This document shows positions 20 to 61,138 of a stretch of DNA of 64,000 bases, piece after piece. The translations under genes and the position numbers were made by a program. Positions within the stretch are counted from its first letter, which is position 1. The number at the start of each line of letters is the position of its first letter. The stretch lies in the IMG/VR virus record IMGVR_UViG_3300045988_128600. The stretch is one strand, 5' to 3'. Source of the stretch: a virus. The notes beneath the pieces are model-generated. The model worked only from the letters and a program-made list of their open reading frames with translations. It was not told the DNA's origin and ran no database searches.

Positions 20-223
20 TCATTTATTTTCTCCTTCATCAGATTTATTAAAACAAAAATGTAAATATTTATTTAAATCAGGAAGATTACCTAATTTTGG
101 AGGTATATTAAATAAATAAGGTTTATCTCCTTTAGTAAAATCTAAAAAATTATTTAGAAGAAAATAAACTTTTTCTTTATATTCTTGATAAGTTTCAATC
201 ATAAATACTTTCTCCTTTTCCAT
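20..223 (-). CDS. hypothetical small protein, last gene of the left-end minus-strand operon
   Basis: 67-aa ORF ending in TGA; very AT-rich; no recognisable motif. Confidence 0.3.
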   Translation of the reverse strand: MEKEKVFMIETYQEYKEKVYFLLNNFLDFTKGDKPYLFNIPPKLGNLPDLNKYLHFCFNKSDEGENK

Positions 224-2273
224 CTAAATAATTCAAAAACCATTCATAAGTAGGTACATAACATAACTCATTATTAAGATAATTTAATAATGGATAAATT
301 TCATTTTTAATATCATTAAAATTAGTTATACATTCTCCTCTTAGAAGATTAAATTCAATTTTCTAATTTTTAATATCTTCTATAATTTGTTTATCTAAAT
401 TGCATAAATTAGGGATATTATTAAAATCTTCTTTATTATTATATAAATTATACATAGTATATAATATATAATAAATTAAAAGAAGAATTTTTTCTAAAAA
501 ATAATTATTTTCATATCCATAAAAAGAAGAATCTAAATCACTTACTAATTTTATTTCATTAATAATCCTATAAAGATTCCGTCTTAAAGTGCTTTGTTTG
601 CAATCTTCGTCAATATTTTCTAATTTTAAAATATCAATAAAATTAGCAAAAAATACAATTATTTTATTGATATATCCTGTAATTATCATATTAGAATTAG
701 AATGAGATAAACAATTAGGATTGTCTTCTAACTAAGTTATATAAAGACCCAGATTCTAATCTTCTAACTCATAAGATTCACCATAAATATCGCATCTATC
801 TAAGAAAATACTGTCTTCTCCAAAGAAAAATTTTGAATATTTTATATTATTCTTAATAAGAAAATCTCTTTTAAGAATTAAATTAATCTTTTCAACTGAC
901 TTATCAACATTAGCTATTTTAAATACACCAAAATCTTCCTCACTATGTTTTATTGAATTATATAAAATTTCTAGAACATTATCATTCGGAAATAAATCAT
1001 CAGAATCCCAAAATAATACATATTTATTAAAAGAATACTCTAATCCTAAATTACGAGTTAGACCGGGTCCTTTTCGTTCTAAATTTTTAAAAAAGAAACA
1101 AGGAAAACTCGCTTCATCAAATACTTCAATAAGTTTTTTATCATAGAAAGAATGGTCGCTAATAAAATATACACAACAGTCTTTTATAATTGTTTGAGTG
1201 GATAAATTATTATACAAATTAATAATTTGCTAATCATTCATATTATAATAAGGTATTATAATATCCATTTTTCCATCAATAAAACGAGTAAAACATTTTT
1301 TTAAATAATAAGTATTATATCTAAATTCAATTGGACATCTATTTTCTTTAAATAACTAATAATTTTCTAAAAAATTTTCTTTATCATTAACTAATTTTAA
1401 ATAAAAATCATAATCTCTAAAATAGGCGTCTTCCATTGGAACTATAAATTCTGATTTTGTATCATAATATTTGTGCCAAATCCAAGAAGCTTCAGACATA
1501 GTTCCATCACAATATTTACAAATATTTTTAGGTTTAAAAATAAAATTATGTAAATCATCTAAACTATTTATATCCTCTAACCGCAAATAATCACTTTCAT
1601 CTTCTGGAATATTTACATTATATTTTTTTCTATAAATATCCAAATGTGCAGAAAAAGGACATATATAAATTTTATAATTTTTTAAAGTAAAACAAGGTAG
1701 CTAATGCGGACATTTATGAAAATATACTTCATTTATATCAGTAGTTCCCGCTTCATTTACAAGCTATTGTCGCATAAATAATCTTGAATTATGATTAAAC
1801 CCTAAACCATGACTATCTAAATATTCTACCGCTTTATGATCAGTATATTTTCCATAAGTAGTAATATCAAATATTACTCCCATATCTTGATATTCTTTCT
1901 CATGTTTAAAAGCATCTTGTAAATGACACCCATTGCTTAATATTTTAATTTCTACTTTATCTTTTGGAAAAACTTCTCTAGCAATCTAACATATTTCAAA
2001 TAATTTTGGATGTAAAGTAGGCTCTCCACCTAAAATCATAAAAAGTTTTATATTTGGAATTTTTTTATAAGCAAAAGTAATTTGATTGCGAAAATCATCT
2101 AAATCAATATACCAAGGTTCTGCCAAGGGAGAAAAATGATTACATCCCGCGCAATTAAGGTTACAATGATCTACAATATGCATTTCTAAGCTAACACCAT
2201 CATAGACCGATTTCCACACTGGATTAGTATAAGGAGGAATCCCTTGATAATTTTTAGTTCTATCTATTTCCAT
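195..2273 (-). CDS. radical-SAM domain followed by a family-2 glycosyltransferase domain in one continuous amber-read-through frame (a fusion, or two adjacent genes that cannot be separated under recoding)
   Basis: ATG at 2273-2271 sits 5 nt after a GGAGGA SD. The N-terminus has CNLNCAGC (CxxxCxxC) and ILGGEPTLHP. The frame has only TAG (about 8) and no TAA/TGA until TGA at 195-197. From M at about 1268 the sequence reads MDIIIPYYN...GPGLTRNLGL...WDSDD, which are GT-A/GT2 motifs. Confidence 0.5.
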
Positions 2274-2835
2274 ATTTATCCTCCAAAACATTTATAATAT
2301 TTCCATCATAATTAACTAATTCTTTTATTTGACTATCTCTTTCCTATAAAAAACATTCCGTACAAATTTCATTTATATCATTTAAATCACTATGAAAAAA
2401 TTCACAACGATGTATTTTTCTATTTAACTATTCACAATTTTTATCACACTTTAAAATCTATTCTTCTTTATCGTAAATAATTGGATGTTCTTCTTCAAAT
2501 CGTAAAGTTAAATATAACTTAAATTCTAATTGTCCCTAACTTGAATATAACATCGTTCTATAAAAAATAGATTTTACTGTAGATTCAAACGTAAATTTTT
2601 GTTTTTGATTAAAAACTAATTCAATAATTTTTATATCTTTGTATTCTAAATCTTTTAATTGATTATACAGATAATTTAATGAAGAATATTTTATATCATT
2701 TGAATTATTTACAATTTTACAAAAAGTAATTTCTTTTGGAAAATTTAATCCAAAAACAATATCATTACATTCACGCTCGTCAAACTTTACTGATTTTAGT
2801 AAAATTTGACGAGCATTATATAAATTAATTAACAT
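2254..2835 (-). CDS. Cys-rich (CxxC pairs) hypothetical protein, TAG-recoded
   Basis: ATG overlaps the upstream TAA (TAATG). Under TAG read-through (5 TAGs) the frame stays open to TAA at 2254. Cys pairs CDKNCE and CTEC are present. It overlaps the start of the next gene by about 20 nt. Confidence 0.4.
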
Positions 2836-6071: not shown

Positions 6072-6851
6072 TTAAGAACGTGATCTACCAGCGCCACTAC
6101 GATTTGTACTATTAGAAGTATAAGCCCCTCTATAGGCTCCTCTATAAGTACTTCTATTACCATTATTACTACTATAATTAGAACTTCTTACTCCATTATT
6201 ACTTGAGTAATTAGCAGTATAATAAGTATAATTACTTGAATAATTTGAACTTCTATTGCCATTATTACTACTATAGTTTGAACTTTTATTACCATTATTA
6301 CTTGAATAATCAGAAGAACGTTGGGCATTATTACTTGAATAATAAGAGCTTCTTTGGGCGTCATTACTACTATAATAAGAACTTCTTTGGGCGTCATTAC
6401 TACTATAATAAGAACTTCTTTGTGAATTATTGCTTGAATAATTAGAACTATTATAACTATTATTGCTTGTATAATCCGCACCATTATAGCTATTATTGCT
6501 TGTATAATTAGCACCACGATAACTATTATTACTTGTATAATCTGCTCCATTATAAGCGCAAATACCATTTATAGTATCAAGTTTACTTCTAATTTCTTCT
6601 AAGGGGACTCGTTTCATAAGCTCACTAGCTCTTGGAGCGGTAAAATTAGAAAAAATAGCCTAAGTTCCTACATAAGAAACATTTCTTAAATTTTCAATTT
6701 CATTTTTTAAAGTAGTAATGTCACTTTGTCTCGCATGACGCTCCCCGTTTGAGGAAGCAGTCGTGCGAGTTTGAGAAAAACGAGTCTAAGCAGTATTTAA
6801 AGTATCATATAGAGCGCGAACATCGCTCCATGAAATACGACTACCAGCCAT
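6072..6851 (-). CDS. repetitive S/N/Y-rich protein with leader-like N-terminus; candidate substrate (precursor) of the downstream rSAM/GT enzymes
   Basis: ATG at 6851-6849. Two in-frame TAGs (6786, 6660) join a non-repetitive about 80-aa N-terminal part to tandem about 10-11-aa repeats (YTSNNSY(R/N)G, QRSSYYSSN(D/N)A, NGN(K/R)SSNYSSN). Ends TAA. Confidence 0.55.
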
Positions 6852-27878: not shown

Positions 27879-28493
27879 TTAGAGTTCTTGAAGCAACTCC
27901 AAAGTTTTTTCGTATCCATACTTATTTATCAATCGAGTTGTTTCAATTATAATTTCTTTTCGATTCATTAGCATCCATCTGGGGTTATCTTCCGGCGAAC
28001 CCCATCTAAGATTTTCTAATCTATTATCAGTGCGGTTTCCGTTAATGTGATCTATAATCTATTCTTCAAAATTAATATTTGGTTGCCAAGATTGTAATAC
28101 TATACGATGTAAATTATAATTCTAATTATTAATAGAAACTCTAACATACCCCTAATAAATTGTTCCTTTTAAAATTATTTTAGTCCGTTTATTCCTAACT
28201 CGACCTAAATTAGAAACTTCATAATTCTTAGAGCAATAAGTTTCTATCCATTTTTCTCCATCTAATTCTGTCGTATCACTTCTGCGAGTAGAAAATAAAG
28301 ATTTATCAACGTCTTGCTTTTCCGTGCGCTCAACGGTATAAACTGCTTTTGCTCCAATACCTGTTCTTGTAATTAAGAATCCTCGTTTTAATTGATTCTT
28401 ACAAAACAAAGGAAAATTTGCACTAATTGTGGAGATTGCTACTCCAAAATAATCTGCTAATTCTTGTTTATTCAAAATAATCAGTCCTTTCAT
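27879..28493 (-). CDS. HNH homing endonuclease (N-terminal HTH, NUMOD4-like, HNH_3), TAG-recoded
   Basis: N-terminal HTH (QELADYFGVAISTIS) and a WIETYCSKNYEVSNLGRVRN NUMOD4-like motif precede TAG at 28152. Reading 4 TAGs as sense reveals DHINGNRTDNR-x-KNLRWGSPEDN, which is the HNH motif. Ends TAA at 27879-27881. Confidence 0.65.
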
Positions 28494-28654
28494 TATTATA
28501 TAAATTTTGGGATTTCATAATTTTCTATTTTTGTCCAATAATTTTTTTGCAAAATTTGCTAAACCTATAATTATTCCAAAATTCCGCCCGGAGCGTCAGT
28601 GATCGGGCGGTCCATTATACCACGTTTTCCGATCGGTGTCAATAGGTAAAATGC

Positions 28655-28685
28655 ACAAAAAAATCAGCAGGTTTTAGTCAACCTG
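28655..28685 (-). terminator. rho-independent terminator
   Basis: cagcaggttgactaaaacctgctg hairpin followed by a T-run on the minus strand, 3' of gene 28698..29114. Confidence 0.55.
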
Positions 28686-28697
28686 CTGATTGAATAT

Positions 28698-29114
28698 TTA
28701 TGCAAGAAATGCGTTTACAATTTCATCGAACACCGTGGGGTTAATGTCCACATTAAAAAAACGGTCATTCTTGCGGAACGCTTTGGGGTATCGTCTAATC
28801 AGTTCCGCACGCAATGCGCTTTCCGCGCCTTCGGCGGGATAGTCCCCACAAGAACGGATTCGGTGAATTTCAACGCGCGTGATAGCATACTTTTTTGCAT
28901 ACTCGCCGATTTCATCACGCAAGCGCCCTATAACATCTTTTGCGGAAGTGCCTACTTTGTTAAATTCAAGTTCGTCGTTGTTGTAAAACTTAAAAAAGTA
29001 GACTGCTTGAACGTCTTTCAGGTTCTCGCCACAATTAGGCATAAACTCCATAGAAACGGGCGGTCTGCCGTCCTTAAATCGGCGTAGCTTAATAGTAATT
29101 TCTTCCATTAACAC
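28698..29114 (-). CDS. GIY-YIG-like domain protein (putative nuclease)
   Basis: VYFFKF-(10)-KVGTS, then downstream R and E residues; weak GIY-YIG-like pattern. It shares a 29-nt 5'-UTR element with gene 31390..32166. Confidence 0.4.
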   Translation of the reverse strand: MLMEEITIKLRRFKDGRPPVSMEFMPNCGENLKDVQAVYFFKFYNNDELEFNKVGTSAKDVIGRLRDEIGEYAKKYAITRVEIHRIRSCGDYPAEGAESALRAELIRRYPKAFRKNDRFFNVDINPTVFDEIVNAFLA

Positions 29115-29231
29115 AAAATCCTCTCTATTGATTGAGGTTTACCATCGTTCTCTCAACCATTATTTTTTGTACTTTTTTGCTTGTTTTCGGGTGAAAAACC
29201 GCATTTTTCAACGGTTTTTCACCCTTTTTTG

Positions 29232-29639
29232 TCAGTTTTTGGGCTTTCGCTTCTGAATCAGGGTCAATTCATAATCATTTTCGCCCACATGGAACGCAAT
29301 CATGCGCTCAATGTTCGTGATTTCCACATTTTCGCACGCATTTTCGCTGTTTTCACGCAAAAAAGTCGCAAGTTCAGCGATAATCGAGCGTTTTGTGGGG
29401 TTTTCCTTGCGCTGTCGCTTCTCAAACTTATAAGCGGTCGGCGCTTTGCGTGTTCCGGTCTTAGAATACTTGTTAGCTTCTTTGAGCTTTTCCGCGGACA
29501 GGTCAAAGTCTTTGGCGATTCCATGGTCAATGTCATCATCGTCCATGAGAATTTCTTTTGCTTCCTCGGCAGTACAATCCAACTTTTTCATTAGATTGTC
29601 AATCTTTGCCTGAAAGTCCTTTTCACTCATTTTAGGCAT
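29232..29639 (-). CDS. hypothetical protein
   Basis: 135-aa ORF. Overlapping plus-strand and alternative-frame ORFs were judged spurious. Confidence 0.45.
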   Translation of the reverse strand: MPKMSEKDFQAKIDNLMKKLDCTAEEAKEILMDDDDIDHGIAKDFDLSAEKLKEANKYSKTGTRKAPTAYKFEKRQRKENPTKRSIIAELATFLRENSENACENVEITNIERMIAFHVGENDYELTLIQKRKPKN

Positions 29640-29703
29640 TTTCTTTGCCCCCTTTCAAGTATGATTATAACACCGCCGTCAGCAAATGTCAAGAGGAAAA
29701 TGT

Positions 29704-29738
29704 GGGAGCGCCTAATTTTTTTTTAGGCGCTCCCCTTG
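29704..29738. terminator. bidirectional terminator
   Basis: gggagcgcctaa-ttttttt-ttaggcgctccc hairpin. Confidence 0.55.
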
Positions 29739-29740
29739 AA

Positions 29741-30118
29741 TTAACGCGCCATGCGGAAGTAGGACTTGCGCTTGTCCACAATCTTTTCCACCTTGTTGGC
29801 GTCAATCATCTGACGCAGAAGAGCGGAAACGCGCTGGTTGGTGAGGTCGCCCAGATCGTCCACATTCTTAATGAGGTCGGTCACGGTATACAGCTTGTCG
29901 GGGTTTGCGGTCATTTCAGCAAGGATAATGTCCTTGTAGCCGTCGTTGGCAATCTGATTCGCGGTCGGCTTCTTATCGCCCGCGTTCTTCTTGGCGAGCA
30001 ATTCGATTTCGTGGTTGATAAACTCAACCATAGCAGGGTCAGCCTGGACCTCGGACAGCTTGAGCAGAGCCTCGAAACGGTCGCGCTTGGTGAGCTTCTT
30101 AACAGTAGAAGTAGACAT
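29741..30118 (-). CDS. hypothetical protein, paralog family A
   Basis: About 60% identical to 32307..32681 over its length; shares the HEIELLAKKNAGDKKPTA motif. Confidence 0.55.
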   Translation of the reverse strand: MSTSTVKKLTKRDRFEALLKLSEVQADPAMVEFINHEIELLAKKNAGDKKPTANQIANDGYKDIILAEMTANPDKLYTVTDLIKNVDDLGDLTNQRVSALLRQMIDANKVEKIVDKRKSYFRMAR

Positions 30119-30169
30119 AGTATCAATTCCTTTCTTTGGCGGTAGGTCGCTACCCTTTTGATATTATTG

Positions 30170-30198
30170 AGTATACCACACTTTAGAGTGCTTGTCAA
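30170..30198 (-). promoter_or_regulatory. sigma70-type promoter TTGACA-N17-TATACT
   Basis: Read from the minus strand; it drives gene 29741..30118. Confidence 0.55.
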
Positions 30199-30647
30199 GA
30201 GGTTTCGCAAACTTTTCACACGAATTACCGCCCCGACCTGACGGATAATTTATTGTTTGTTGATTCAATCTATTTGTCAGCGGAAAACCGCGTCAAGGAT
30301 AGTTGGTTCAATCAAACTCACTTTCGCGTTCAACGTTTGGCTTTACAACGTGGTGTATTATGTTTACTTCCTATACTTTCTCAAGGTCGCGCGCCCTCGG
30401 ATTTCTTGGGCTACTCCCTCTCGACATTTTCTATTGTAGCACACTCGCTGGGATTTGTCAAGAGGGAATTTCAAATTTCTTTGAAAACGGGTCAGTTACC
30501 GAGTTATCACACCCATCAGCGAAGCCGTTTGGCAATTCACTGTTCCCTCCTGACATTATTCATTATAGCAGATTGCCCGTAGATTGCAATTGACAAAATA
30601 ACCAAATTACGGGAAAAAATTTTCTTCATTTTTGTGCAACTTTTCTC

Positions 30648-30676
30648 TTGACAAAATTGGCGGGGTGTGGTATAAT
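30648..30676 (+). promoter_or_regulatory. consensus sigma70-type promoter TTGACA-N17-(TGg)TATAAT on the plus strand
   Basis: Perfect -35 and -10 hexamers with a 17-bp spacer and an extended -10. It points opposite to the flanking genes. Confidence 0.5.
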
Positions 30677-30683
30677 GGAAAAT

Positions 30684-30790
30684 TCGGACCGCTGCGTACG
30701 CTGGCGGTCCGCCCATTTTATCACAAAAATCCGCATTTGTCAATAGGCAAAATAAACAAAAAAAACTGCCCATTTTTGGGCAGTTTTTTA
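30684..30790 (+). ncRNA. candidate about 105-nt sRNA (repeat-family copy E1)
   Basis: It starts downstream of the consensus promoter with a GC stem-loop (cggaccgc...gcggtccg). An A/U-rich segment follows, then the terminator hairpin ctgccca-ttttt-gggcag and a T-run. Confidence 0.35.
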
Positions 30791-30791
30791 T

Positions 30792-31037
30792 TTAGTCCAG
30801 CAGGTTGATTTCGCCGGGAATTGCGAAAGAATCAGCGTTCAATGTGTAGTTCCAGCCCGTGGCAAAAAATTCAATCGTTCCACACTCTCTGACGTAATTG
30901 TCTACTGACCGCCGAACGTTGTTCCAGAGGTCAGTCTGTCGGCTTTCCGCTCGGGCTTCCTTGACTTCCTTTATTTGGGCGATGAGTTCGTCCAGTTCCT
31001 CGTCAGTCATGCAATTAAAATCTAAATCCATTTTCAA
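30792..31037 (-). CDS. hypothetical protein
   Basis: 81-aa ORF. Confidence 0.45.
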   Translation of the reverse strand: MKMDLDFNCMTDEELDELIAQIKEVKEARAESRQTDLWNNVRRSVDNYVRECGTIEFFATGWNYTLNADSFAIPGEINLLD

Positions 31038-31339
31038 AACTCCCTTTTAATGGCTTTTTCCCACGCTTCACGGCCGAACTTTCCCTCGCGGTCTAACTTC
31101 TTGCCAATGTCTTTTGCGGTCAGCAGGTCAAGCTCGTCCGCAATCTCATCTTCAAAGTTTACCCAAGAGTCGTAAGTCTGAATAATGAGAACTTCATCAG
31201 CTTCAAAGACGCCACCGCACTCAGCGCAGATAATATAATCGTGGTCGATTAAAATACCCATGTGAGGGTCATTATCATCAGGGACTACAAAAAGGACTTG
31301 TTTAGCGTTCATGTGAAACACCTCTTTCATTTGATACAT
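31034..31339 (-). CDS. hypothetical protein
   Basis: 101-aa ORF; the promoter at 31341-31369 lies directly upstream. Confidence 0.45.
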   Translation of the reverse strand: MYQMKEVFHMNAKQVLFVVPDDNDPHMGILIDHDYIICAECGGVFEADEVLIIQTYDSWVNFEDEIADELDLLTAKDIGKKLDREGKFGREAWEKAIKREF

Positions 31340-31340
31340 T

Positions 31341-31369
31341 GATTATACCATAGGGAATAGGATTTGTCA
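31341..31369 (-). promoter_or_regulatory. sigma70-type promoter TTGACA-N17-TATAAT
   Basis: On the minus strand the element reads gggcTTGACAaatcctattccctatggTATAATcaa. Confidence 0.55.
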
Positions 31370-31389
31370 AGCCCTATTCCCTATTTTTT

Positions 31390-32166
31390 TTAGCTCATGT
31401 TTATCATGGGATTTTCCTTAATGTTTCGCATGAGCGCACGCTGAAACTCGGTCGGCTTGGGGCGTTCCACCGTGGGAGTTTTGAAAAGGGACTTTTCCAT
31501 TTTCTTGTGCTGTCGGACGCAATAGCGCAGAATCTCAACTTCAATGAGAACATCTTCTAATCCCGTGTGGGATTCATCAAAGCTGTCCTTACCGCTGATA
31601 AAGCGATAGAGAATTTCTGCGGTGAAACGGAGCTGTCCGTTCTTGGTCTTGTAGCCGTTCTTTTCGCAATAGTCGCGGTAAGTGGGCATTTTGCCGATAA
31701 CCTGACGTGCCATTTTCAACGTGTCCCAAATTTCGAGGTCGTAGGGGAAGAAATAGCGATACTTGCTTTTCGTGTCCCATCTTTGTGCGTTGTTGCAGGC
31801 GTTAAGGTCGAACCGCATATTGTGAGCGCACACAAAAGAGCAGTTGTAGCGCTCGACACATTCGCAAAACGCAAGACGAATTTCGTAAAGGTCAGCCATA
31901 ATGCGAATGCCGTTTTGAATATCCTCGACATAGCGAGGAATCTTGTTGGCATAGTATGCGGACTGCATGAGGTCGCGTTCGTAGCAGAAAATGTCGCGAT
32001 TCACAAAGGAATGAGTTTCATAAACATTTCCCTTGGAATCAATGACTGCCCAGCCGAAGTCGTAGGGAAGCACATTTGACATATCCAGCTTATTACCGTC
32101 CTGAATGGTGTTTGCGGTTTCCGTGTCCAGCATAATGCCGTAGTTTTTGCGCCTATCAATACCCAT
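31390..32166 (-). CDS. DnaQ-like 3'-5' exonuclease (DEDDh)
   Basis: IMLDTETAN (Exo I), CAHNMRFDLN (Exo II) and HTGLEDVLIEVE (Exo III, H-x4-D) motifs. Confidence 0.6.
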   Translation of the reverse strand: MGIDRRKNYGIMLDTETANTIQDGNKLDMSNVLPYDFGWAVIDSKGNVYETHSFVNRDIFCYERDLMQSAYYANKIPRYVEDIQNGIRIMADLYEIRLAFCECVERYNCSFVCAHNMRFDLNACNNAQRWDTKSKYRYFFPYDLEIWDTLKMARQVIGKMPTYRDYCEKNGYKTKNGQLRFTAEILYRFISGKDSFDESHTGLEDVLIEVEILRYCVRQHKKMEKSLFKTPTVERPKPTEFQRALMRNIKENPMINMS

Positions 32167-32306
32167 TTTATCGTCTCCTATTGGAAAAGTAGATTGAGGT
32201 TTACCATCGTTCTCTCAACCTCTAAATATAGTATAGCACTTTGCTATTGGTTTGTCAACAGTTTTTTTTGTGGGGCAGGGGATTTTTTATCCCCTGCCCT
32301 TTTCCC

Positions 32307-32681
32307 TTATGCGTGGGAGAAGTAGGACTTGCGCTTGTCAACCGTCTTGACAACCGTGCCTGCATCAATCATCTGACGCAGAAGAGCAGAAACACGCTGG
32401 TTGGAATACTCCGCAAGCTCGGGAACGCCCTTGATGAGGTCGGTCACGGTATACAGCTTGTCAGGGTTTGCGGTCATCTCGTCCAGAATGACCTGCTTCA
32501 CAGCGTCATTCTCCATCTGCTTGGCCGTGGGCTTCTTATCGCCCGCGTTCTTCTTGGCGAGCAATTCAATCTCATGCTCGATGAACGCCACCATGTCAGG
32601 ATTTGCCTGAACCTCGCTCATTTTGAGCAGAGCCTCGAAACGGTCGCGCTTGGTGAGCTTCTTAACAGTAGAAGTAGACAT
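32307..32681 (-). CDS. hypothetical protein, paralog family A
   Basis: Paralog of 29741..30118 and 11203..11619. Confidence 0.55.
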   Translation of the reverse strand: MSTSTVKKLTKRDRFEALLKMSEVQANPDMVAFIEHEIELLAKKNAGDKKPTAKQMENDAVKQVILDEMTANPDKLYTVTDLIKGVPELAEYSNQRVSALLRQMIDAGTVVKTVDKRKSYFSHA

Positions 32682-33184: not shown

Positions 33185-33213
33185 TTGACAAAAATGCTGG
33201 CAGGGTGTATAAT
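33185..33213 (+). promoter_or_regulatory. consensus TTGACA-N17-TATAAT promoter on the plus strand (repeat copy E2)
   Basis: Same layout as the promoter at 30648-30676. Confidence 0.45.
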
Positions 33214-33219
33214 GGTAAA

Positions 33220-33330
33220 TTCCGGTCGCAACATGCGTTAGCGACCGGCCAATTTTATCACATTTAAGGAACTTTGTCAATAGTCAAAGTAAACAAAAAA
33301 ATCTCCCCATTTTTGGGAAGATTTTCTTTT
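33220..33330 (+). ncRNA. candidate sRNA (repeat-family copy E2)
   Basis: GC stem-loop ccggtcgc...gcgaccgg, then the terminator tctcccca-ttttt-gggaaga and a T-run. Confidence 0.3.
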
Positions 33331-33604
33331 AGCCAATCACATTGACCTCGGTTTTGATAGGCGTTACCATCTTGTCGCGCGGGAACTCGCGAACCTGACC
33401 CGTTTCAAGATTCACCGCGTAGCAATACTGCGGGCCTCTCGACCGGACAAACGGCGTGTTGTTGTTGCTGTCAATTTTAAGATACATTCCCATACCGCTA
33501 CCATTGGAACGCAGAGTGGTGAACGTGCCACCGCTGAGAACGTTGATAATCTGGAACTGACCCTTAGTGCCAAAATTTACTTTCATTTTTATTTCCTCTT
33601 TCAA
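33329..33604 (-). CDS. hypothetical protein
   Basis: 91-aa ORF. Confidence 0.4.
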   Translation of the reverse strand: MKEEIKMKVNFGTKGQFQIINVLSGGTFTTLRSNGSGMGMYLKIDSNNNTPFVRSRGPQYCYAVNLETGQVREFPRDKMVTPIKTEVNVIG

Positions 33605-37880: not shown

Positions 37881-38150
37881 TACCCACGCAAAATGCGAGA
37901 ATCAACCAATACCATGCCACCATTATTTTATTCCCCCTTTATTTGTTGTATACATCTTACCACATTATAGGATTTTTGTCTATTGGCATTTTACACAAAA
38001 ATTCGTGCGAAAATTTGTTGAACTTACCTCTTGACAAAAAACTCGGCGCGCCACAATCGTCCGCGCGCCGACAATTTTATCACATTCAAGGAACTTTGTC
38101 AATAGTGAAAGTAAACAAAAAAAATCACCCAAATTGGGTGATTTTTTCAT

Positions 38151-38342
38151 TTAATTTTCTACGGCTTCGAGGTCGGCGAGAATGGGAACGAGCTTGTCTT
38201 CAAGAAGCGCGACACGCTCAATCATTTCATTTGCCTCTGCACCACCCGACGGGTATCTCTTCTGAATACCGTATCGAGCCATTCTGCACACCGTTTCAAC
38301 AACCTCGCTCAGTTTCTCATTTTTCATTTTTCTTATCTCCAT
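38151..38342 (-). CDS. hypothetical protein
   Basis: 63-aa ORF. Confidence 0.4.
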   Translation of the reverse strand: MEIRKMKNEKLSEVVETVCRMARYGIQKRYPSGGAEANEMIERVALLEDKLVPILADLEAVEN

Positions 38343-40103: not shown

Positions 40104-40368
40104 GTTGTAAATCCCTTTCCGGTTTGGTAGGTTTTCCTTCCCTTACTGTGATTATAGTATAGCACCGATTCGGGATTCTGTCTATTGACATTATGCACAA
40201 AGATTTGCCATAAAAATTGTTGAACTTGCCTATTGACACAAAATTCCGGCCGCGCCTGGCGTGCACGGCCGGCCGATTATACCACAAAGTTTTGAAATTG
40301 TCAATAGTCAAAGTAAACAAAAAAATCTCCCCATTTTTGGAGAGATTTTTAATTCAAAAAATTTAATT

Positions 40369-43629: not shown

Positions 43630-43911
43630 AATTAAAAACCCCTTGTAATGTATTTGCCGTTCGGTATTGTGTCGCTCGGCATGGTCAAATAGTAGCAGAT
43701 TCGACCACGGAATACAAGTGGCGGATTGCACAAAGATTTGTTTGTACGGGGGTCTGTTTTTGTGCAGTTTGACGGGCGCGGCACCCTTGCATCATACCTT
43801 TGTATTTTTATTCACTCAAGAATGAATAAAATCTGCATAGAGGGGGGGTGTATTTCAGGAAAAATAAATTTTTATTTATTGTTTTTTCTTTTGCCTGGTC
43901 AAAACGCAATC

Positions 43912-44085
43912 TAAATCAATTTTCAATTTCAAATTACGAAGAATAATTTTCAATTTCAAATTACGAAGAATAATTTTCAATTTCAAATTACGAAGAATAA
44001 TTTTCAATTTCAAATTACGAAGAATAATTTTCAATTTCAAATTACGAAGAATAATTTAAAATTTCAAATTACGACTTCTTTTTTC
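43912..44085. repeat. 28-bp tandem repeat TTTTCAATTTCAAATTACGAAGAATAAT x5.5
   Basis: Five exact copies plus a degenerate sixth, placed between the divergent leftward and rightward transcription units. Confidence 0.85.
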
Positions 44086-44165
44086 TACCTCTTTTAGGCT
44101 TCTCACCCCACATAAAAGTGTATAATCCAGAAGTAGCAGAATATGTAGCTTTCTGCTGATACTTT

Positions 44166-46215: not shown

Positions 46216-47403
46216 ATGGCTGAAACATATTATTGCGAAAAATGTAATCGCACAATGAATGGCACGGAATTCTATTCATCTAATAATTTAGAAAAATATC
46301 CTAATGATGGTAAATTTCCTGTGTGCAAAAAATGTATGACAATGCACGTCGATAATTGGAATCCAGATACTTATTTATGGATTTTACAAGAAGCGGATGT
46401 TCCTTATGTTCCAGATGAATGGAATAAATTAATGGAAAAATATGGGCGCGATCCGCAGTCTATAACCGGTATGACAATTATTGGACGTTATTTGTCAAAA
46501 ATGAAACTCAAATAGTTTAAAGATTATCGTTGGAAAGATACAGAATTTTTATAGTAGATGGCGAATAATAAATTAGAGCAAACTATGAAGCGTCAAGGAT
46601 ATGATGCTCAATAGATTGCAACCGCTATTGAAAAAAGTTCTATTGCTATTCCAGAAGGAGAACTAAAAGGACCGGTTTATGCTCCACCACCTAATGCCCC
46701 TGCGGAAGATTATTTCGCACAATAGAGTGGTGAAGTGGAACAAGAATTAGACTTAACTGATGAAGACCGCACTTATTTAAGACTTAAATGGGGCAAGACT
46801 TATAAACCTGAAGAATGGGTTAAGCTTGAATAGCTGTATGAAGAAATGATGGCTTCTTATGATATTCAAGGTGCCGGACATAAAGATACGCTAAAATTAA
46901 TATGTAAGACATCTTTAAAGGCAAATCAATTGATCGATATTGGTGATATTGAAGGTTTCCAAAAGATGAGCAAAGTATATGATAGCTTGATGAAGTCTGG
47001 TAAATTTACCGCTGCTCAAAACAAAGCAGAATCAGGTGAATTTATTGATTCAATTGGTGAATTAATTGAATTGTGTGAAAAAGAAGGATATATTGAAAGA
47101 TATTATGTTGAATAGCCACATGATAAAGTGGATTTAACTATTCAAGATATGCAACGTTATACTCGTACTCTTATTGAAGATGAAACTAATATTAGCACAA
47201 TGGTAGAAAAAGCTTTACGCGAAAATGCTAAAGAAGATGAAGAGAAAGCAAAGAACGCGGAAAGCGATATCGTTGATGATGCTGATTTAAGTATTGAAGA
47301 ACTTGAAAAAACTATTAAAGATAGTGATTACGCGGATTTTGAGGAATTTAAAGAATAGGAGTCCGCGCGAGATAATGAGTTCTTATAGGGTTTGGATAAA
47401 TAA
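46216..47403 (+). CDS. hypothetical protein upstream of the terminase (possible small terminase subunit), TAG-recoded
   Basis: The pieces 46216.., 46846.. and 47128.. share a frame and are joined by about 8 TAGs. N-terminal Zn ribbon. Ends TAA, overlapping the terminase ATG. Confidence 0.4.
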
Positions 47404-49142
47404 TGGCATTACAAGATTTACTGTAGTTAAATGATAGCCGTAAAAAAATAGGTCTATCACCGGAGCGAGTAGAAGCGGTAATGCCTACTATCCGCAAATA
47501 CGTTGCCTTTTGGAGAGAATATCCTGATTTATTTGTAGATTTTATGGTGCGAGGAAGACGCACTGAAATAAAAGATGGAGAATTTAATTTTTATTTTTAT
47601 TAGAGAGTATTTCTCCGTTCTGTTATGCGTTATTAGTATGTTTACGCGGTTTTCCCTCGTGCTTATTCTAAATCATTCTTGTCTGTTATGGCATTAATGA
47701 TTAGATGTATTTTATACCCTGGTGCGCATTTGTTCGTTACTTCTGGAGGTAAAGAACAAGGTGCTAGTATTCTTCATGATAAAGTTCAAGAAATATGTGA
47801 ACTTATTCCAAGTTTTAATCGAGAAATTGATTGGAGCCGAGGAAAAACTCTTGAAGGAAAAGATAAAGTTAGATATGTGTTTAAAAATGGTTCAGTTTTG
47901 GATAACCTCGCAGCTCGTGAAAGCACTCGTGGTCAGCGTCGTCATGGTGGACTAATGGAAGAATGTGTTGGTATTGATGATGCCATTCTTCGTGAAGTTA
48001 TTATTCCTGTTATGGCAATTTCTCGTAGAGCTAAAGATGGCACTACTAATGAACAAGAGCCATTAAATAAATCACAAATCTATATTACTACTGCTGGTTA
48101 TAAGGGCACATTCCCTTATGATAGACTTATTGGTTTCTTAGTTCGTATGGTGACTTAGCCCGATCGTTGTATGATATTAGGCGGAACATGGCGAACTCCT
48201 GTTGCGGTAGGATTACAAAGTAAAACATTTATTACTGACCAAAAGAATGAAGGAACTTATAATGAAGCTTCATTCGAACGTGAATATGAATCTAAGTGGT
48301 CAGGAACTGTTGAGGATGCTTTCTTTAATGGAGAGCATTTTGATAGAAATAGAAAACTATTATAGCCTGAATATGAAGCTTCTGGGCGCGCGGGCGCACA
48401 AGCTTATTATGTACTTTCTGTAGATGTAGGTCGTAAGGGGTGTGATTCGGTAGTTTGTGTATTTAAAGTAACACCACAAGCTCAAGGTCCAGCTATTAAA
48501 TCATTAGTAAATATGTATACTATGTCAGATGATCATTTTGAAGATTAGGCTATTAAATTAAAGAAATTATTTTATAAATATAAAGCTAAAACTTTGGTTA
48601 TAGACGGTAATGGTTTAGGTATTGGACTTTTGGATTATATGGTAAAATCTCAAAATGATGAAGATGGTGAATTTTTACCTGATTTTGGTGTTGAGAATGA
48701 TGATGATGGATATTATAAAAAATATCGCACACCAAATACTCAATTTGATGCTATGTATGTTATTAAAGCAAATGCTCCAATAAATACTGAATGTCATGCT
48801 AATGCTCAGACTCAATTACAAGCGGGTAAGGTAAAATTCTTAATAGATGAGAGAACAGCTAAAGAAAAATTATTAGCTACTCAAAAAGGTTCAAAAATGA
48901 CTTCTGAACAAAGGGCAGATTATTTAAAACCATTTACTCTAACCTCCATATTAAAAGAAGAAATGATGAATTTACGCGAAGAAAATGAAGGTATTAATAT
49001 TATCCTAAAATAGGCAAATCGTGGAATTCGTAAAGATAAATTTTCGGCTTTTGAATATGGATTATATTATTTAAAACTTGAAGAAGATAAAAAGAAAAAG
49101 CGTAAAAAGTTTAATGCGGCTGATTGGTGCTTTTTAAATTAA
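47403..49142 (+). CDS. terminase large subunit, TAG-recoded
   Basis: Four same-frame pieces (47403.., 47679.., 48171.., 48594..) are joined by about 7 TAGs, giving about 579 aa. The segments YVLSVDVGRKGCDSVV and LVIDGNGLGIG are terminase ATPase/nuclease-like. The position before the portal gene fits. Confidence 0.6.
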
Positions 49143-49154
49143 GGAGGGTGGAAA

Positions 49155-49511
49155 ATGCGTGCTTCAAGAGGAGAAATTAAAATTGAAGAAATCTTAGAAG
49201 AAGCAGGACTACCTTTTAAAATGGAATATATCTTTCCAGATTTAAAAAGCCCAAGCGGGCGTCCGCTTCGTTTTGATTTTGTTATATTTGATGATGATGG
49301 AAAAATTGATTTCATTATTGAGTATTAGGGAAAATAGCATTATGAAGCCAGTTCTAAATTTGGCGGAAAACGCGGTTTATACCAGTAGCAATATAATGAT
49401 AATCAAAAAAGACGTTTTTGCGCTTTACATGATTTTAGATTAATAGAGATTCCATATACCGACGAAAACCTTATTTCTTATGATTATATAATGAAATTAG
49501 CAGGTTATTAA
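49155..49511 (+). CDS. small PD-(D/E)xK-like nuclease-fold protein (Vsr/DUF559-like), TAG-recoded
   Basis: RFDFVIFDDDGKIDFIIEYQGKQH gives a D...E-x-K-like core; 3 in-frame TAGs. Confidence 0.35.
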
Positions 49512-49524
49512 AGGAGGTGGAACT

Positions 49525-51174
49525 TTGGATACGCAAGATCGTAATGATTAGATTCACGCTAAAGGTTTTGATATTTATAATAGTCGTTATGAATATAATT
49601 ATAATGACACTATGGATTATGCCAATAGAAAAATAAAAGTTGGCACAAAAACTTTAGATGATGCTATTTTAAAACTTGGTGATTATAGTAAGATTAGATA
49701 CCCAGGTCAAACTCGTATTATCACGAAACCCGATGTGCTTCGCGCACTAGCAGAAAGAGATTTAAATGCTTTGCGATATATTTCTAATCTTTATTATGAT
49801 ATAAGTGGTGTATATCAACGAGTTTGTAATTATGTTGCTTTTTTATACCGCTATGATTGGTATATTGCAGCCGAAACTTATGATGATAATGTAAAAGAAG
49901 AAAAAGTTTTAAAAGATTTTTATAGAATGTTGAATTATTTTGATAATAGTTATATTAAAAAGATTTGCGGAGATATTGCTTTACAAGTCGTTAAAAATGG
50001 ATGCTATTATGGATATATAGTTCCTTCAGAGAAAAATCTAATTTTACAAGAGTTGCCAGTTAGATATTGTAGAACACGTTATAGTGTAAATAATACTCCA
50101 GTTGTCGAATTTGATATGCGATTTTTTGATACTTTTAGAGATATGAATTACCGTTTAAAAGTATTAAAATTATTCCCAGAAGAATTTGCTAAAGGTTATG
50201 TTTTATATAAGCAAGGAAAACTTGCTTTAGATGATGCGGTTGGATGCTAGCATACTGGTAGTTGGTATGTTCTTGAGCCAGAAAATTGTATTAAATTTAA
50301 TATTAATAATAGTGATGTTCCTATTTTTGTAAATTCCATTCCTACTATTATGGATTTAGATGCAGCGCAAGATCTTGACCGCAAGAAACAAATGTAGAAG
50401 TTGCTTAAAATTTTAGTCCAAAAGCTCCCAATGGATAAAAATGGTGATTTAATATTTGATGTTGATGAAGCCAGAGATATCCATAATAATGCCGTTTAGA
50501 TGTTATAGAGGGCTATTGGAGTAGATGTTTTAACTACATTTACTGATGTAGATTCTATTGATATGTCTGATAAGAATACTACTACAACGACAGATGATTT
50601 AGCTAAAGTTGAACGTAGTGTTTATAATTCGTTAGGTATTTCATAGAATTTATTTAATACTGATGGTAATATGGCTTTAGAAAAATCAGTGTTAAATGAT
50701 GAATCTACAATAAGAAGTTTAATTTTATAGTTTAATATATTCTTTAATAGAATTATTGAAAAAAAGAGTAGTAATAAGAAATATAATTTTAGATTTTATT
50801 TATTAGAAACTACTCAGAATAATTATCAAACACTTTCTAAAATGTATAAAGAACAAGCGCAAATGGGGCAATCAAAACTATTGTCTTAGATTGCTCTTGG
50901 ACATTCATAGAGTTTTATTCTTAATGCAGCTCATTTTGAAAATGAGATTTTACATTTAAGTGAAATTATGATTCCTCCTCTTATGAGTTCTACTATGGGT
51001 AGTGAAGATATTTTGAGTTTAAAGGGTTCATCATCTAATAATAAAACTCAAAATAATTCAGGAAGTTTAGGTTCTGGAACTACTAAAGCTTCTAATGGCG
51101 AGGCGGGACGTCCGGAAAAACCTGATGATTAGAAAAGTGAAAAAACTATTCAAAATAAAGAAGCAATGAAATAA
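49525..51174 (+). CDS. portal protein (putative), TAG-recoded
   Basis: About 549 aa once about 11 TAGs are read through. The position follows the terminase. AAGGAGGTG SD, then a TTG start. Confidence 0.5.
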
Positions 51175-59793: not shown

Positions 59794-59966
59794 TGATTAT
59801 TAAAGGTAAACGTTGGAACATCCAAAAGAAAACTGAGGAAGTAAAAAACAACAATACCAAGAAAGAGAAAAAAGCTGTTAAATCTATCAAGGTTCCTGAA
59901 GAACCTGTGATTTCTGAAGAAGAAATTGATGAGGTCAGCAAATTCTTTAATTTAGATAAAGAATAA
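59793..59966 (+). CDS. small basic protein
   Basis: ATGA overlap with the upstream stop; 57 aa. Confidence 0.3.
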   Translation: MIIKGKRWNIQKKTEEVKNNNTKKEKKAVKSIKVPEEPVISEEEIDEVSKFFNLDKE

Positions 59967-59968
59967 TT

Positions 59969-60010
59969 TTATGGGAGAGAATAGAAATATTCTCTCCCAT
60001 TTTTTTTATT
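59969..60010 (+). terminator. rho-independent terminator
   Basis: tgggagagaata-gaaa-tattctctccca hairpin, then T8. Confidence 0.65.
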
Positions 60011-60031
60011 TAGAGAAAAAGGAGAGATAAT

Positions 60032-61138
60032 ATGAATTCGTTATAGAGAAGTATTAAGGCCAGTCCAAGAGAAATGAATACAGAAGATTTTTTAAAGAAA
60101 TCTTATGAATTTACAAAAAGAAGTATGAGTTAGAAATTAAGAGCAAGAGATACTTCTGAAAAACAAGCTAAAAAATTAGAAGAATTCTTTCAAAGTATTC
60201 AAAATAGATAGCTTGGAAATCCTATCGAAAATATCCAAATGAGTGAATTATTAGATGCTTTAGAATAGATTAATCCTTAGCTTTTTAATTCAATGAAATA
60301 TTTATTTACTACGCCAGATAACTATGGAGATTCTAATGATGCGCATGGTAAATATTTTGAAGGGGTTATTGCGGAAGCGGTTGCCACTGCGGAGAATTAT
60401 TTTGCTGGTAATAAAACTATGACTATAAGTGGAAGTAGTAAAAAGGCTGGAACCGCATCTGTTAATCTTATAGATTTAGCAAAGGATTTAGATGAAGATA
60501 CAAAAAATCTAATGAATGATATTTATTAGAAAACTGCCCAAGAAATGAAAAAAGATAGTGAAGCTGCCTCTTCTATGATAAAAGGAGTTTCTGGCAAAGC
60601 GGATATTATAGGAATTTAGTAGAATTATACAATATAGAAAACTAGCCATTTAGAATTAGATGAAGAAATTTATGATGCTTTATTAAATGCTACTTTTACT
60701 GCGAAAAATTATATGTCTAACACTTAGATTGAATTAGGATCTACTAATCCTTTTCGTGTTTTTATGACTATGATTCCTCTTGGAGGAGCTACAAGTAAAA
60801 TTTAGAGATATTACCGTATGTTGGCTTGTAAATAGAAGCACTTTCCTGATAAGCATCCTGATGCACCAAAGTATTTTTATAGATTAAGAGCTATTTATGA
60901 ATTAACTGGTGGAAAATCTAATTATACTAATACTGTATTAAATAAGCTAATAGGTGGAAATTATACTAAATTTTTAGTTTTAAATTTATAGGGACATATA
61001 AGAGTTATTCCTACTTAGAGTGTCATAAAAGAGCTTATTGACAATATTGATGATGATTAGTTTAATAAAGATATAGATTGGCAAAAGGCTTTATATGGAC
61101 GTATTAGGATTAATCAAAATAAATTTAGTGAAATTTAA
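60032..61138 (+). CDS. tail-region protein, heavily TAG-recoded (about 15 TAG)
   Basis: AAAGGAGAG SD then ATG; the frame is open to TAA at 61136 only if TAG is read as sense. Confidence 0.4.

What the first reader, a model, noticed from the sequence alone, without database searches (positions are those of the whole stretch)
29120..32225. Identical 29-nt 5'-UTR element with a TAG-terminated mini-uORF upstream of two nuclease genes
GGTTGAGAGAACGATGGTAAACCTCAATC is perfectly conserved immediately 5' of the GIY-YIG-like gene (start 29114) and the DEDDh exonuclease gene (start 32166). In both it contains a GAGAG SD-like site and an ATG opening a short uORF, MVNLNQ-TAG or MVNLNLLFQ-TAG. The uORF stops at TAG just before the main SD. 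If TAG becomes sense late in infection, ribosomes would read across the main start in another frame. This would give a built-in switch coupling nuclease expression to suppressor status. Alternatively the element is an operator for an RNA-binding translational repressor.
Basis: inference. Interest (0 to 1): 0.6.

Follow-up and report, generated by a model that had tools for sequence, protein, structure and literature searches.

The report
Shared leader RNA hairpin before nuclease genes
The identical 29-base sequence in front of two phage nuclease genes is a conserved RNA hairpin found across a large family of human-gut phages, and the small TAG-ended reading frame inside it looks like a by-product, not a genetic-code switch.

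Summary
GGTTGAGAGAACGATGGTAAACCTCAATC occurs twice, exactly, on the minus strand (32192-32220 and 29130-29158). One copy precedes a DEDDh exonuclease gene, the other a 138-aa GIY-YIG-like gene. Both mini-ORFs read as described, and the phage does use TAG as a sense codon in late genes.

The interpretation changes. The 29-mer is one member of a leader RNA hairpin family that I found in many related gut-phage clades. It has an outer stem, an internal loop, a 2-bp inner helix and a GAUG tetraloop, and the apical sequence A-R-C-G-A-W-G-G-Y-A-A is nearly invariant. The stems turn over by compensatory changes: 8 of 10 pairs covary and 94% of cells are paired. G·U pairs place the structure on the mRNA strand. 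It usually starts a few bases after a sigma-70 promoter and ends 12-26 nt before the start codon.

The mini-ORF is not conserved. Its AUG is lost in three lineages. Its stop is TAG, TAA or TGA. In some lineages it overlaps the main ORF or is fused to it.

The best reading is an operator or stabiliser hairpin recognised by an unidentified factor that co-regulates nuclease and nucleotide-metabolism genes. The element matches no Rfam family.

The parts
32192..32220 (-). Leader hairpin copy 1, upstream of the DEDDh exonuclease gene. Stem GGUUGAG/CUCAAUC, inner pairs A11-U18 and C12-G17, tetraloop GAUG.
   Evidence: Exact match. Folds at -6 kcal/mol. CM scores 52.8 / 48.6 bits on the sense strand against 13.6 / 9.9 on the antisense.
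29130..29158 (-). Leader hairpin copy 2, upstream of the 138-aa GIY-YIG-like gene.
   Evidence: Homologous hairpins precede orthologues of this gene in L264, L281, L283, L285, L288, L290 and L292.
32230..32258 (-). Sigma-70-type promoter (TTGACA-17-TATACT with TG) that would start transcription about 2-4 nt before copy 1.
   Evidence: Promoter scan, 11/12 matches. The same arrangement is seen in most relatives, with 6-16 nt between the -10 and the hairpin. The start site is inferred, not measured.
32178..32207 (-). Mini-ORF 1 (MVNLNLLFQ-TAG). Judged incidental.
   Evidence: Read from the sequence. Not conserved across relatives.
29125..29145 (-). Mini-ORF 2 (MVNLNQ-TAG). Judged incidental.
   Evidence: Read from the sequence. 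The stop is TAA in L175, and the peptide changes in L048.
31390..32166 (-). DEDDh 3'-5' exonuclease gene (258 aa).
   Evidence: Motifs in the sequence. phrog_20187 at 5e-43 and a weak hit to DNA polymerase exonuclease subunit. The AF2 model with Foldseek matches RNase T, Orn, epsilon and 3'hExo at E of about 1e-5.
28698..29114 (-). 138-aa GIY-YIG-like protein gene.
29189..29224 (-). GC-rich hairpin without a U-run between the 135-aa gene and copy 2. No promoter was detected between it and the hairpin.
   Evidence: Sequence. The promoter scan finds nothing between 29629 and 29158 on the minus strand.
29232..29692 (-). Promoter (29692-29664, 12/12) and 135-aa gene whose transcript probably carries copy 2 as an internal element.
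   Evidence: The order 135-aa gene, hairpin, GIY-like gene is conserved in relatives.

Best explanation
The 29-mer is the DNA copy of a structured 5'-leader RNA element. It is a hairpin with an outer stem of 6-9 bp, a small internal loop, a 2-bp inner helix and a GAUG tetraloop. Its apical nucleotides (A10, C12, G13, A14, G16, G17, A19, A20) are held constant while its stems evolve freely. It belongs to a family spread through a large group of TAG-recoded human-gut phages. In that group it marks the leaders of DEDDh exonuclease genes, the GIY-YIG-like gene and a few other nucleotide-metabolism or unknown genes. I propose that it is an operator. A sequence-specific RNA-binding factor, most likely phage-encoded and not yet identified, recognises the apical module. 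The 3' arm of the hairpin ends only about 5-15 nt before the Shine-Dalgarno sequence and 12-26 nt before the start codon. Binding would therefore block 30S loading and switch both nuclease genes off, or tune them, together. When unbound, a hairpin at the very 5' end of the transcript would also protect the mRNA from 5'-end-dependent decay. Shown here: the conserved structure, the covariation, the strand specificity, the position and the gene association. Inferred: the transcription start, the existence of a binding factor, and the direction of regulation. The AUG and TAG inside and after the hairpin are by-products of the conserved loop (GAUG) and of the A-rich ribosome-binding region.
For: The 29-mer is exact in two contexts and is exactly conserved in a relative whose flanks have diverged (L009). 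In an alignment of 8 contexts the only invariant block is the loop AACGATGGTA. All 23 hand-collected distinct variants fold on their own into the same architecture. On 28 distinct CM-aligned sequences, 94.4% of cells are paired and 8 of 10 pairs change on both sides (36 cells). The covariation score is 0.393 against at most 0.137 for slid controls, and 0 of 500 shuffles reach the observed values. The inner helix covaries: A11-U18 to G-C in L281, L283, L285, L290 and the L292 exo copy, and C12-G17 to A-U in L036 and L125. G·U pairs are common (17 of 28 at pair 2-28), and the sense strand scores 48.6 bits against 9.9 for the antisense, which indicates RNA rather than duplex DNA. Position is constant: 6-16 nt after a consensus -10 and 12-26 nt before the start codon. 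The gene association recurs in different genome arrangements. Examples are the exo and GIY-like genes in clade A, both genes again in L292 with two different hairpin variants, and other DEDDh types, an HD-like gene and unknown genes elsewhere. Full-length relatives (160-197 kb) carry exactly two copies. Other early leaders in the window lack the element.
Against: No binding protein has been identified. The candidate I tested by co-occurrence, the adjacent 135-aa protein, is also present in phages whose exo leader lacks the element. The hairpin does not include the SD or the start codon, unlike classical operators. Copy 2 and the L288 and L292 GIY copies are not at a mapped 5' end, so the stabiliser part cannot apply to them unless the RNA is processed. 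The stem energies are modest (-3 to -12 kcal/mol). The covariation alignment was fitted to the model, which favours the structure. All transcription starts are inferred from consensus promoters only.
Confidence: 0.5

Rival explanations
1. The element is only a 5'-terminal stabiliser or structural hairpin. It protects the mRNA from 5'-end-dependent decay (RNase J or RNase Y type) and needs no specific trans-acting factor.
For: It starts 6-16 nt after the -10 in nearly all lineages, so it would sit at the extreme 5' end. Leaders of homologous exo genes in other clades carry hairpins at the same place with unrelated loops, for example GGUGAGGG-UAAAA-CCCCACC in L100-L109, and also L137 and L153. 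Another early leader in the window (at about 30160) also begins with a small hairpin. The layout matches what I recall of the B. subtilis aprE leader (5' stem-loop plus ribosome-binding site); that is my own knowledge, not tested here.
Against: A stabiliser needs only a stem. Here about 10 apical nucleotides are invariant across clades whose stems have been completely replaced. The element is restricted to particular gene families rather than to all early transcripts. Copy 2, L288 and the L292 GIY copy are internal to a transcript or follow a terminator.
Confidence: 0.2
2. The hairpin AUG opens a translated uORF whose TAG stop becomes sense once the phage suppressor tRNA is expressed. Ribosomes then run across the main start in another frame and shut off nuclease synthesis late in infection.
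For: The phage does recode TAG in late genes. TAG is rare on the sense strand of the early region (84 observed against 277 expected), and early genes end in TAA or TGA. Both mini-ORFs end in TAG, which overlaps the main SD. Read-through would cross both main starts out of frame. TAG is kept in most clade A and group B sequences.
Against: The AUG is lost in L114, L264 and L036. The stop is TGA in L009 and L168, TAA in the L175 GIY copy, and TAA or TGA in L058, L147, L281, L283, L285, L401, L455, L444, L392 and L479, although L058 is itself clearly TAG-recoded. The frame overlaps the main start without suppression in L288, L292, L424, L449 and L396, and is fused in frame in L290, L318, L348, L392 and L478. 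CAATAGAAA is retained out of frame in L392 and L430. The G of TAG is as polymorphic as the purines next to it (TAG-AGA, -GGA, -AAA, -GAA and TAA-GGA). The SD-like sequence is absent in L048 (GAAGA) and too close to the AUG in L283 (2 nt). The AUG sits in a closed tetraloop. Synonymous positions are frozen while the peptide changes (MVHFN in L048).
Confidence: 0.04
3. The element is a nut-like RNA site. A phage antiterminator, acting like lambda N on boxB, binds the nascent hairpin and makes RNA polymerase resistant to downstream terminators.
For: There are two near-identical hairpins per genome placed early in early transcripts, one right after a promoter and one after the first gene. This resembles lambda nutL and nutR (my own knowledge). 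The early region is dense in terminators and contains five promoter-plus-immediate-terminator units, which hints that antitermination matters in this phage. The conserved loop with variable stems is what boxB families look like.
Against: The hairpin keeps a tight, constant distance to the start codon of one particular gene (12-26 nt) and travels with gene families rather than with operon starts. Copy 2, L288 and L292 lie downstream of the terminator-like hairpin, not upstream of it. I saw no boxA-like element, and no N-like protein is known here.
Confidence: 0.12
4. The element is a cleavage or processing signal for a sequence-specific endoribonuclease of the phage or host. This would be analogous to T4 RegB inactivating early mRNAs, or would generate a protected 5' end for the downstream cistron.
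For: The conserved loop would suit a specific nuclease. Copy 2 lies between two cistrons after an A-rich linker, where processing would leave the hairpin as a new 5' end.
Against: There is no direct evidence. Most copies already sit at a primary 5' end, and no candidate nuclease has been identified.
Confidence: 0.09
5. The element is a DNA operator, an inverted repeat bound by a dimeric repressor just downstream of the promoter.
For: The arms form an inverted repeat at +3 to +31 of a promoter. Some orthologues of the GIY-like protein carry an N-terminal HTH.
Against: G·U pairs (C·A on the other strand), single-base bulges, an asymmetric invariant centre and covariation in the 2-bp inner helix do not fit a duplex palindrome. 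Copy 2 has no promoter to repress. The element always lies in the sense orientation.
Confidence: 0.05

Closest known systems
Phage translational operators (T4 gp43 operator hairpin, the T4 RegA regulon, the MS2/Qbeta coat-protein operator). Recalled from my own knowledge.
   Same: A small mRNA hairpin next to the ribosome-binding site with a sequence-specific loop. As with RegA, several early nucleic-acid-metabolism mRNAs share one signal. As in MS2, an AUG lies inside the hairpin.
   Different: The hairpin here does not contain the main SD or start codon. The repressor is unknown. There is no sequence similarity to any of these operators. The hosts are probably Firmicutes-like gut bacteria.
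5'-terminal stabiliser stem-loops of Gram-positive mRNAs (B. subtilis aprE leader, ermC, the phage SP82 stabiliser). Recalled from my own knowledge.
   Same: A stem-loop within a few nucleotides of the predicted 5' end, followed closely by a strong ribosome-binding site, in a short leader of about 55-65 nt.
   Different: Stabilisers are not sequence-specific. Here the apical 10-11 nt are invariant, and the element is restricted to certain genes. Some copies are internal.
Lambda N / boxB nut sites. Recalled from my own knowledge.
   Same: Two nearly identical hairpins per genome in early transcripts. The loop is conserved and the stem covaries among related phages.
   Different: The element here is tied to a fixed distance from a start codon. 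No boxA was seen. Some copies lie after, not before, the nearest terminator.
RBS-sequestering hairpins of T4 homing-endonuclease genes (I-TevI, mobE). Recalled from my own knowledge.
   Same: Post-transcriptional restraint of potentially toxic phage nuclease genes through leader RNA structure.
   Different: Those hairpins base-pair with the SD itself and are gene-specific. This one leaves the SD free and is a shared, conserved motif.
Stop-codon recoding as a timing device in gut phages (bioRxiv 10.1101/2021.08.26.457843; PMC9523058).
   Same: The window is such a phage. TAG is sense in the terminase, portal and an inserted HNH gene, and early genes avoid TAG.
   Different: In that literature, in-frame recoded stops delay late proteins. 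A uORF-based negative switch is not described there, and it is not supported here.

Membership tests
   The tetraloop is GAAG (no AUG) in L114, L264 and L036.
   The stop is TGA (L009), TAA (L175, L058, L147, L281, L283, L285 and others). Other lineages show overlap without suppression or in-frame fusion.
   The SD-like run is lost in L048 and lies 2 nt from the AUG in L283. Substitutions preserve base pairs, not the peptide.
Structured cis-regulatory leader RNA (operator-type hairpin) | Secondary structure conserved with compensatory changes on the transcribed strand | tested here: met
   8 of 10 pairs change on both sides, 94.4% of cells are paired, and 0 of 500 shuffles reach the observed values. 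G·U pairs are present, and the sense strand scores far above the antisense.
Structured cis-regulatory leader RNA (operator-type hairpin) | Conserved unpaired nucleotides available for recognition | tested here: met
   A10, C12, G13, A14, G16, G17, A19 and A20 are invariant or nearly so in 23 distinct variants.
Structured cis-regulatory leader RNA (operator-type hairpin) | Fixed position next to the ribosome-binding site of the regulated genes | tested here: met
   The distance from the 3' end of the hairpin to the start codon is 12-26 nt in all family members.
Structured cis-regulatory leader RNA (operator-type hairpin) | A cognate RNA-binding regulator | not testable with these tools
   The co-occurrence test of the neighbouring 135-aa protein was negative. 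No other candidate was tested.
5'-terminal mRNA stabiliser stem-loop | The stem begins within a few nucleotides of the transcript's 5' end | tested here: inconclusive
   This is inferred from consensus promoters for copy 1 and most relatives. Copy 2, L288 and the L292 GIY copy have no promoter. No transcript data are available.
Lambda-type nut site | A hairpin upstream of the terminators it overrides, with an accompanying boxA and an N-like protein | tested here: inconclusive
   Terminators are abundant, but some copies follow the nearest terminator. I saw no boxA by eye, and no N-like protein was searched for.
Any Rfam 15 family | A covariance-model match at or near the gathering score | tested here: not met
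   No gathering-score hit in the window. In the E<=10 scan of 29050-32330 nothing lies on the minus strand at either hairpin. The only overlapping hit is L20_leader on the opposite strand, at 27 bits against a gathering score of 58.7.
DEDDh (DnaQ-like) exonuclease, for the 258-aa protein | Exo I, II and III motifs with His, and an RNase T / epsilon fold | tested here: met
   D14-x-E16, N116-x-x-F-D120 and H200-x4-D205 are invariant in 26 homologues. Foldseek matches DEDDh enzymes at E 5e-6 to 1e-4. Pfam finds nothing.
GIY-YIG nuclease superfamily, for the 138-aa protein | GIY-YIG fold with the conserved Tyr, Arg, Glu and Asn | tested here: inconclusive

The most novel reading that the evidence does not exclude
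On top of the ancestral hairpin, clades A and B (including this window) may have co-opted the loop AUG and the in-frame TAG as a sensor of suppressor-tRNA status. Nuclease synthesis would then be shut off when the phage switches its genetic code. This would be the first uORF-based read-out of a viral code change.
Probability: 0.05. Interest if true: 0.75.

Novelty: new member of a known kind. Interest (0 to 1): 0.45.

Why it matters
The element defines a previously undescribed, strongly covarying RNA motif. It has no Rfam match, and a text search for its core sequence found no relevant paper. The motif links the leaders of nuclease and nucleotide-metabolism genes across many clades of large, uncultured, TAG-recoded human-gut phages. 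It offers a concrete handle on early-gene post-transcriptional control in phages that cannot yet be grown: a 29-nt bait for finding the regulator, and a marker for a small 'nuclease regulon'. It also shows that a tempting link between uORFs and code switching does not survive comparison with relatives.

Tried and rejected
- Rfam scans found no family.
- tRNA and suppressor searches in the window and in 35 related loci found none, so suppressor status could not be examined directly.
- I looked in the window for an antisense partner of the loop and found no enrichment beyond the two copies themselves.
- I considered alternative pairing of the CCUC arm with the main SD. Only 4 bp are possible in copy 2 and none is conserved in copy 1, so I rejected it by inspection.
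- I considered a pseudoknot with the 3' flank, a K-turn or K-loop, and a CsrA GGA motif. By inspection the required sequences are absent or not conserved.
- I tested the neighbouring 135-aa protein as the specific binder. Its homologues also occur in phages whose exo leader lacks the motif, for example contigs 051734, 055134, 093451 and 3300029305_001775, so it gains no support.
- I searched for extra copies in the window with two covariance models with filters off, and found none.
- blastn of the region against annotated phages gave no match. The nearest cultured relatives of the exo gene are Enterococcus phages at 39% amino-acid identity.
- The bacterial-genome scan returned chance matches apart from one 164-kb contig labelled 'uncultured Mollicutes MAG', which is most likely the phage itself.
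The list of clades and gene contexts is therefore incomplete.
Full report
**1. Observation.** The 29-mer GGTTGAGAGAACGATGGTAAACCTCAATC occurs exactly twice in the window, both times on the minus strand, at 32192-32220 and 29130-29158. There are no further matches with up to three mismatches, and none are expected by chance.

- Copy 1 is followed by ...CTACTTTTCCAATAGGAGACGATAAAATG. Its ATG at 32207 opens MVNLNLLFQ-TAG. The TAG overlaps the SD AGGAGA, and the main ATG is at 32166.
- Copy 2 is followed by ...AATAGAGAGGATTTTGTGTTAATG. Its ATG at 29145 opens MVNLNQ-TAG, and the main start is GTG 29114 or ATG 29108.
- Identity ends at the 29-mer boundaries.
- Copy 1 lies 9 nt after the -10 of a TTGACA-17-TATACT promoter (32258-32230).
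- Copy 2 has no detectable promoter. It follows the 135-aa gene and a GC-rich hairpin that lacks a U-run (29224-29189). It probably rides on the transcript from the promoter at 29692.

**2. Genes and genome.**

- The 258-aa protein carries invariant DxE, NxxFD and HxxxxD motifs. Its AlphaFold model (pLDDT 86) matches DEDDh exonucleases: RNase T, oligoribonuclease, Pol III epsilon and 3'hExo.
- The window is a phage that reads TAG as sense in late genes. The terminase large subunit (7 TAG), the portal (11 TAG) and an inserted HNH endonuclease (3 TAG) are recognisable only when TAG is read through.
- In the GC-richer early region (28.6-44 kb), genes end in TAA or TGA. TAG is depleted there to 0.30 of expectation.
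- No tRNA gene lies in the window.

**3. The element elsewhere.**

- Exact and near-exact copies occur in about 15 closely related viral contigs of 85-197 kb. Each full-length contig has exactly two copies, one before the exo orthologue and one before the 138-aa orthologue.
- Copies also occur in human-gut metagenomes and in one 164-kb contig filed as an uncultured Mollicutes MAG.
- More distant phages carry recognisable variants:
  - group B exo leaders, at 60% protein identity;
  - L147, and L036/L125;
  - L058, before an unknown 130-aa gene;
  - orthologues of the 138-aa gene in L264, L281, L283, L285, L288, L290 and L292;
  - a second copy in L292 before a different DEDDh gene;
  - further clades where it precedes other DEDDh types, an HD-like gene and unknown genes.
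- Some exo homologues have no such element, or have a hairpin with an unrelated loop at the same place.

**4. Structure.**

- All 23 distinct variants fold independently into the same shape: an outer stem of 6-9 bp (sometimes with a one-base bulge), a small internal loop, a two-pair inner helix (11-18 and 12-17) and a tetraloop. The tetraloop is GAUG in most, GAAG in three lineages and AAUG in one.
- The apical sequence A-R-C-G-A-W-G-G-Y-A-A is almost invariant, while the stems are replaced. Examples are GGUUGAG/CUCAAUC, AUUUGGG/CCCAAGU, GGUUAGGG/CCCUAAUC, AGUCAAGG/CCUUGAUU and GUAAGGG/CCCUUAU.
- The inner pair A11-U18 becomes G-C in five variants. C12-G17 becomes A-U in L036 and L125.
- On 28 distinct sequences aligned with the covariance model:
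  - 94.4% of cells are paired;
  - 8 of 10 pairs show changes on both sides;
  - the covariation score is 0.393, against at most 0.137 when partners are slid;
  - no shuffle out of 500 reaches the observed values.
  The alignment was fitted to the structure, which favours it.
- G·U pairs are frequent, and the sense strand scores 48.6 bits against 9.9 for the antisense. The structure is therefore an RNA feature of the mRNA strand, not a duplex-DNA palindrome.

**5. Position.** Across lineages the hairpin begins 6-16 nt after a consensus -10 hexamer and ends 12-26 nt before the start codon. The leader is thus little more than the hairpin plus the ribosome-binding site. Two covariance models run with filters off find no further copy in the 64-kb window. 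The element is therefore specific to these two genes and is not a general early-leader feature.

- The AUG is absent in L114, L264 and L036.
- The stop codon varies:
  - TAG in clades A and B, and in L421;
  - TGA in L009, L447, and the L392 and L479 exo copies;
  - TAA in the L175 GIY copy, L058, L147, L281, L283, L285, L401, L455 and L444.
- The frame runs over the main start without any suppression in L288, the L292 GIY copy, L424, L449 and L396.
- The frame is fused to the main ORF in L290, L318, L348, L392, L413 and L478.
- In L392 and L430 the CAATAGAAA motif is retained but is out of frame with the AUG.
- L058 is itself clearly TAG-recoded, yet uses TAA.
- Within clade A the G of TAG varies like the neighbouring purines.
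- In L048 the changes alter the peptide (MVHFN) but restore pairing (G7:C23 to A:U).
- The SD-like run is lost in L048 and sits 2 nt from the AUG in L283.

The AUG is best explained as part of the conserved GAUG tetraloop. The TAG is best explained as part of the A-rich region around the SD.

**7. Mechanism.**

- I commit to an operator-type leader hairpin. An unidentified, probably phage-encoded, RNA-binding factor recognises the invariant apical module. Because the hairpin abuts the SD, binding would control 30S access, and perhaps mRNA stability, for the exonuclease and the GIY-YIG-like gene together.
- A plausible rationale comes from my own knowledge of T4, where endonuclease II and exonuclease A act on host DNA: potentially toxic nucleases need joint, timed restraint. 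This rationale is inference.
- The structure, its conservation, strand, position and gene association are shown. The factor, the transcription starts and the sign of regulation are inferred.
- The rivals are a purely structural 5' stabiliser, a nut-like antitermination site, an endoribonuclease site, a DNA operator and the uORF/TAG switch.
- The invariant loop argues against the pure stabiliser. The fixed distance to one gene's start codon argues against a nut site. G·U pairs and bulges argue against a DNA operator.

**8. Comparison with known systems.** The element works most like the phage translational operators (T4 gp43 and RegA, the MS2 coat-protein operator). In layout it resembles Gram-positive 5' stabiliser leaders. 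It matches no Rfam family, and a full-text search for its core sequence found only unrelated primers. The recoding literature (10.1101/2021.08.26.457843) describes in-frame stops that delay late proteins and a homing endonuclease, which fits the HNH gene seen here. It does not describe a uORF switch.

**9. Verdict.** The primary interpretation is not supported. The secondary one (an operator) is the best current reading. This is a new RNA motif family of a familiar kind, of moderate interest.

Noticed in passing
window ~28560-28700, 30660-30800, 33197-33337, 38019-38159, 40221-40361 (minus strand): A unit repeated five times. It consists of an intrinsic terminator, then a conserved TTGACA-N17-TGTGATAAAAT promoter, then immediately a GC-rich hairpin whose arms differ between copies but stay complementary, followed by AATTTT. 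A strong promoter therefore runs straight into a terminator-like hairpin, giving an RNA of about 35-40 nt. The same unit occurs in relatives (L058, L292). One copy is faced by a consensus promoter on the plus strand (30648-30676). It could be an attenuator awaiting antitermination, or a small RNA.
   Followed up: partly
window 27879-28514 (minus strand): An AT-rich HNH endonuclease gene with three in-frame TAG codons, inserted just after the terminator of the 138-aa gene at the edge of the standard-code early region. PHROG hit to HNH at 9e-29 when TAG is read as Q.
   Followed up: partly
window 45-61 kb (plus strand) and 195-2291 (minus strand): Late genes read through many TAG codons: terminase large subunit 47400-49142 (7 TAG), portal 49495-51174 (11 TAG), and ORF 59960-61138 (16 TAG). 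GC content is 25-35% there, against about 43% in the early region at 28.6-44 kb.
   Followed up: partly
window 32307-32681 and 29741-30118 (minus strand): Two paralogous 124/125-aa genes (77% nucleotide identity over 300 nt), each with its own consensus promoter. Homologues are present in all related clades I examined. Function is unknown; the C-terminal half looks like a winged helix by eye.
   Followed up: no
window 43891-44101 and 6111-6575: A perfect 27-nt tandem repeat (about 7 copies) at the boundary between the early region and the AT-rich region, and a 33-nt periodic repeat inside a coding region.
   Followed up: no
L037 and L038 (viral contigs 3300045988_180318 and _179616): Distant homologues of the exonuclease gene that themselves contain an in-frame stop codon. 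In some relatives, recoding therefore reaches this early gene.
   Followed up: no
L100-L109 and L401: The exo leaders of the L100 clade keep the outer stem GGUGAGGG/CCCCACC found in L401 but have a 5-nt loop (UAAAA) in place of the conserved apical module. This looks like a natural deletion of the recognition part.
   Followed up: no
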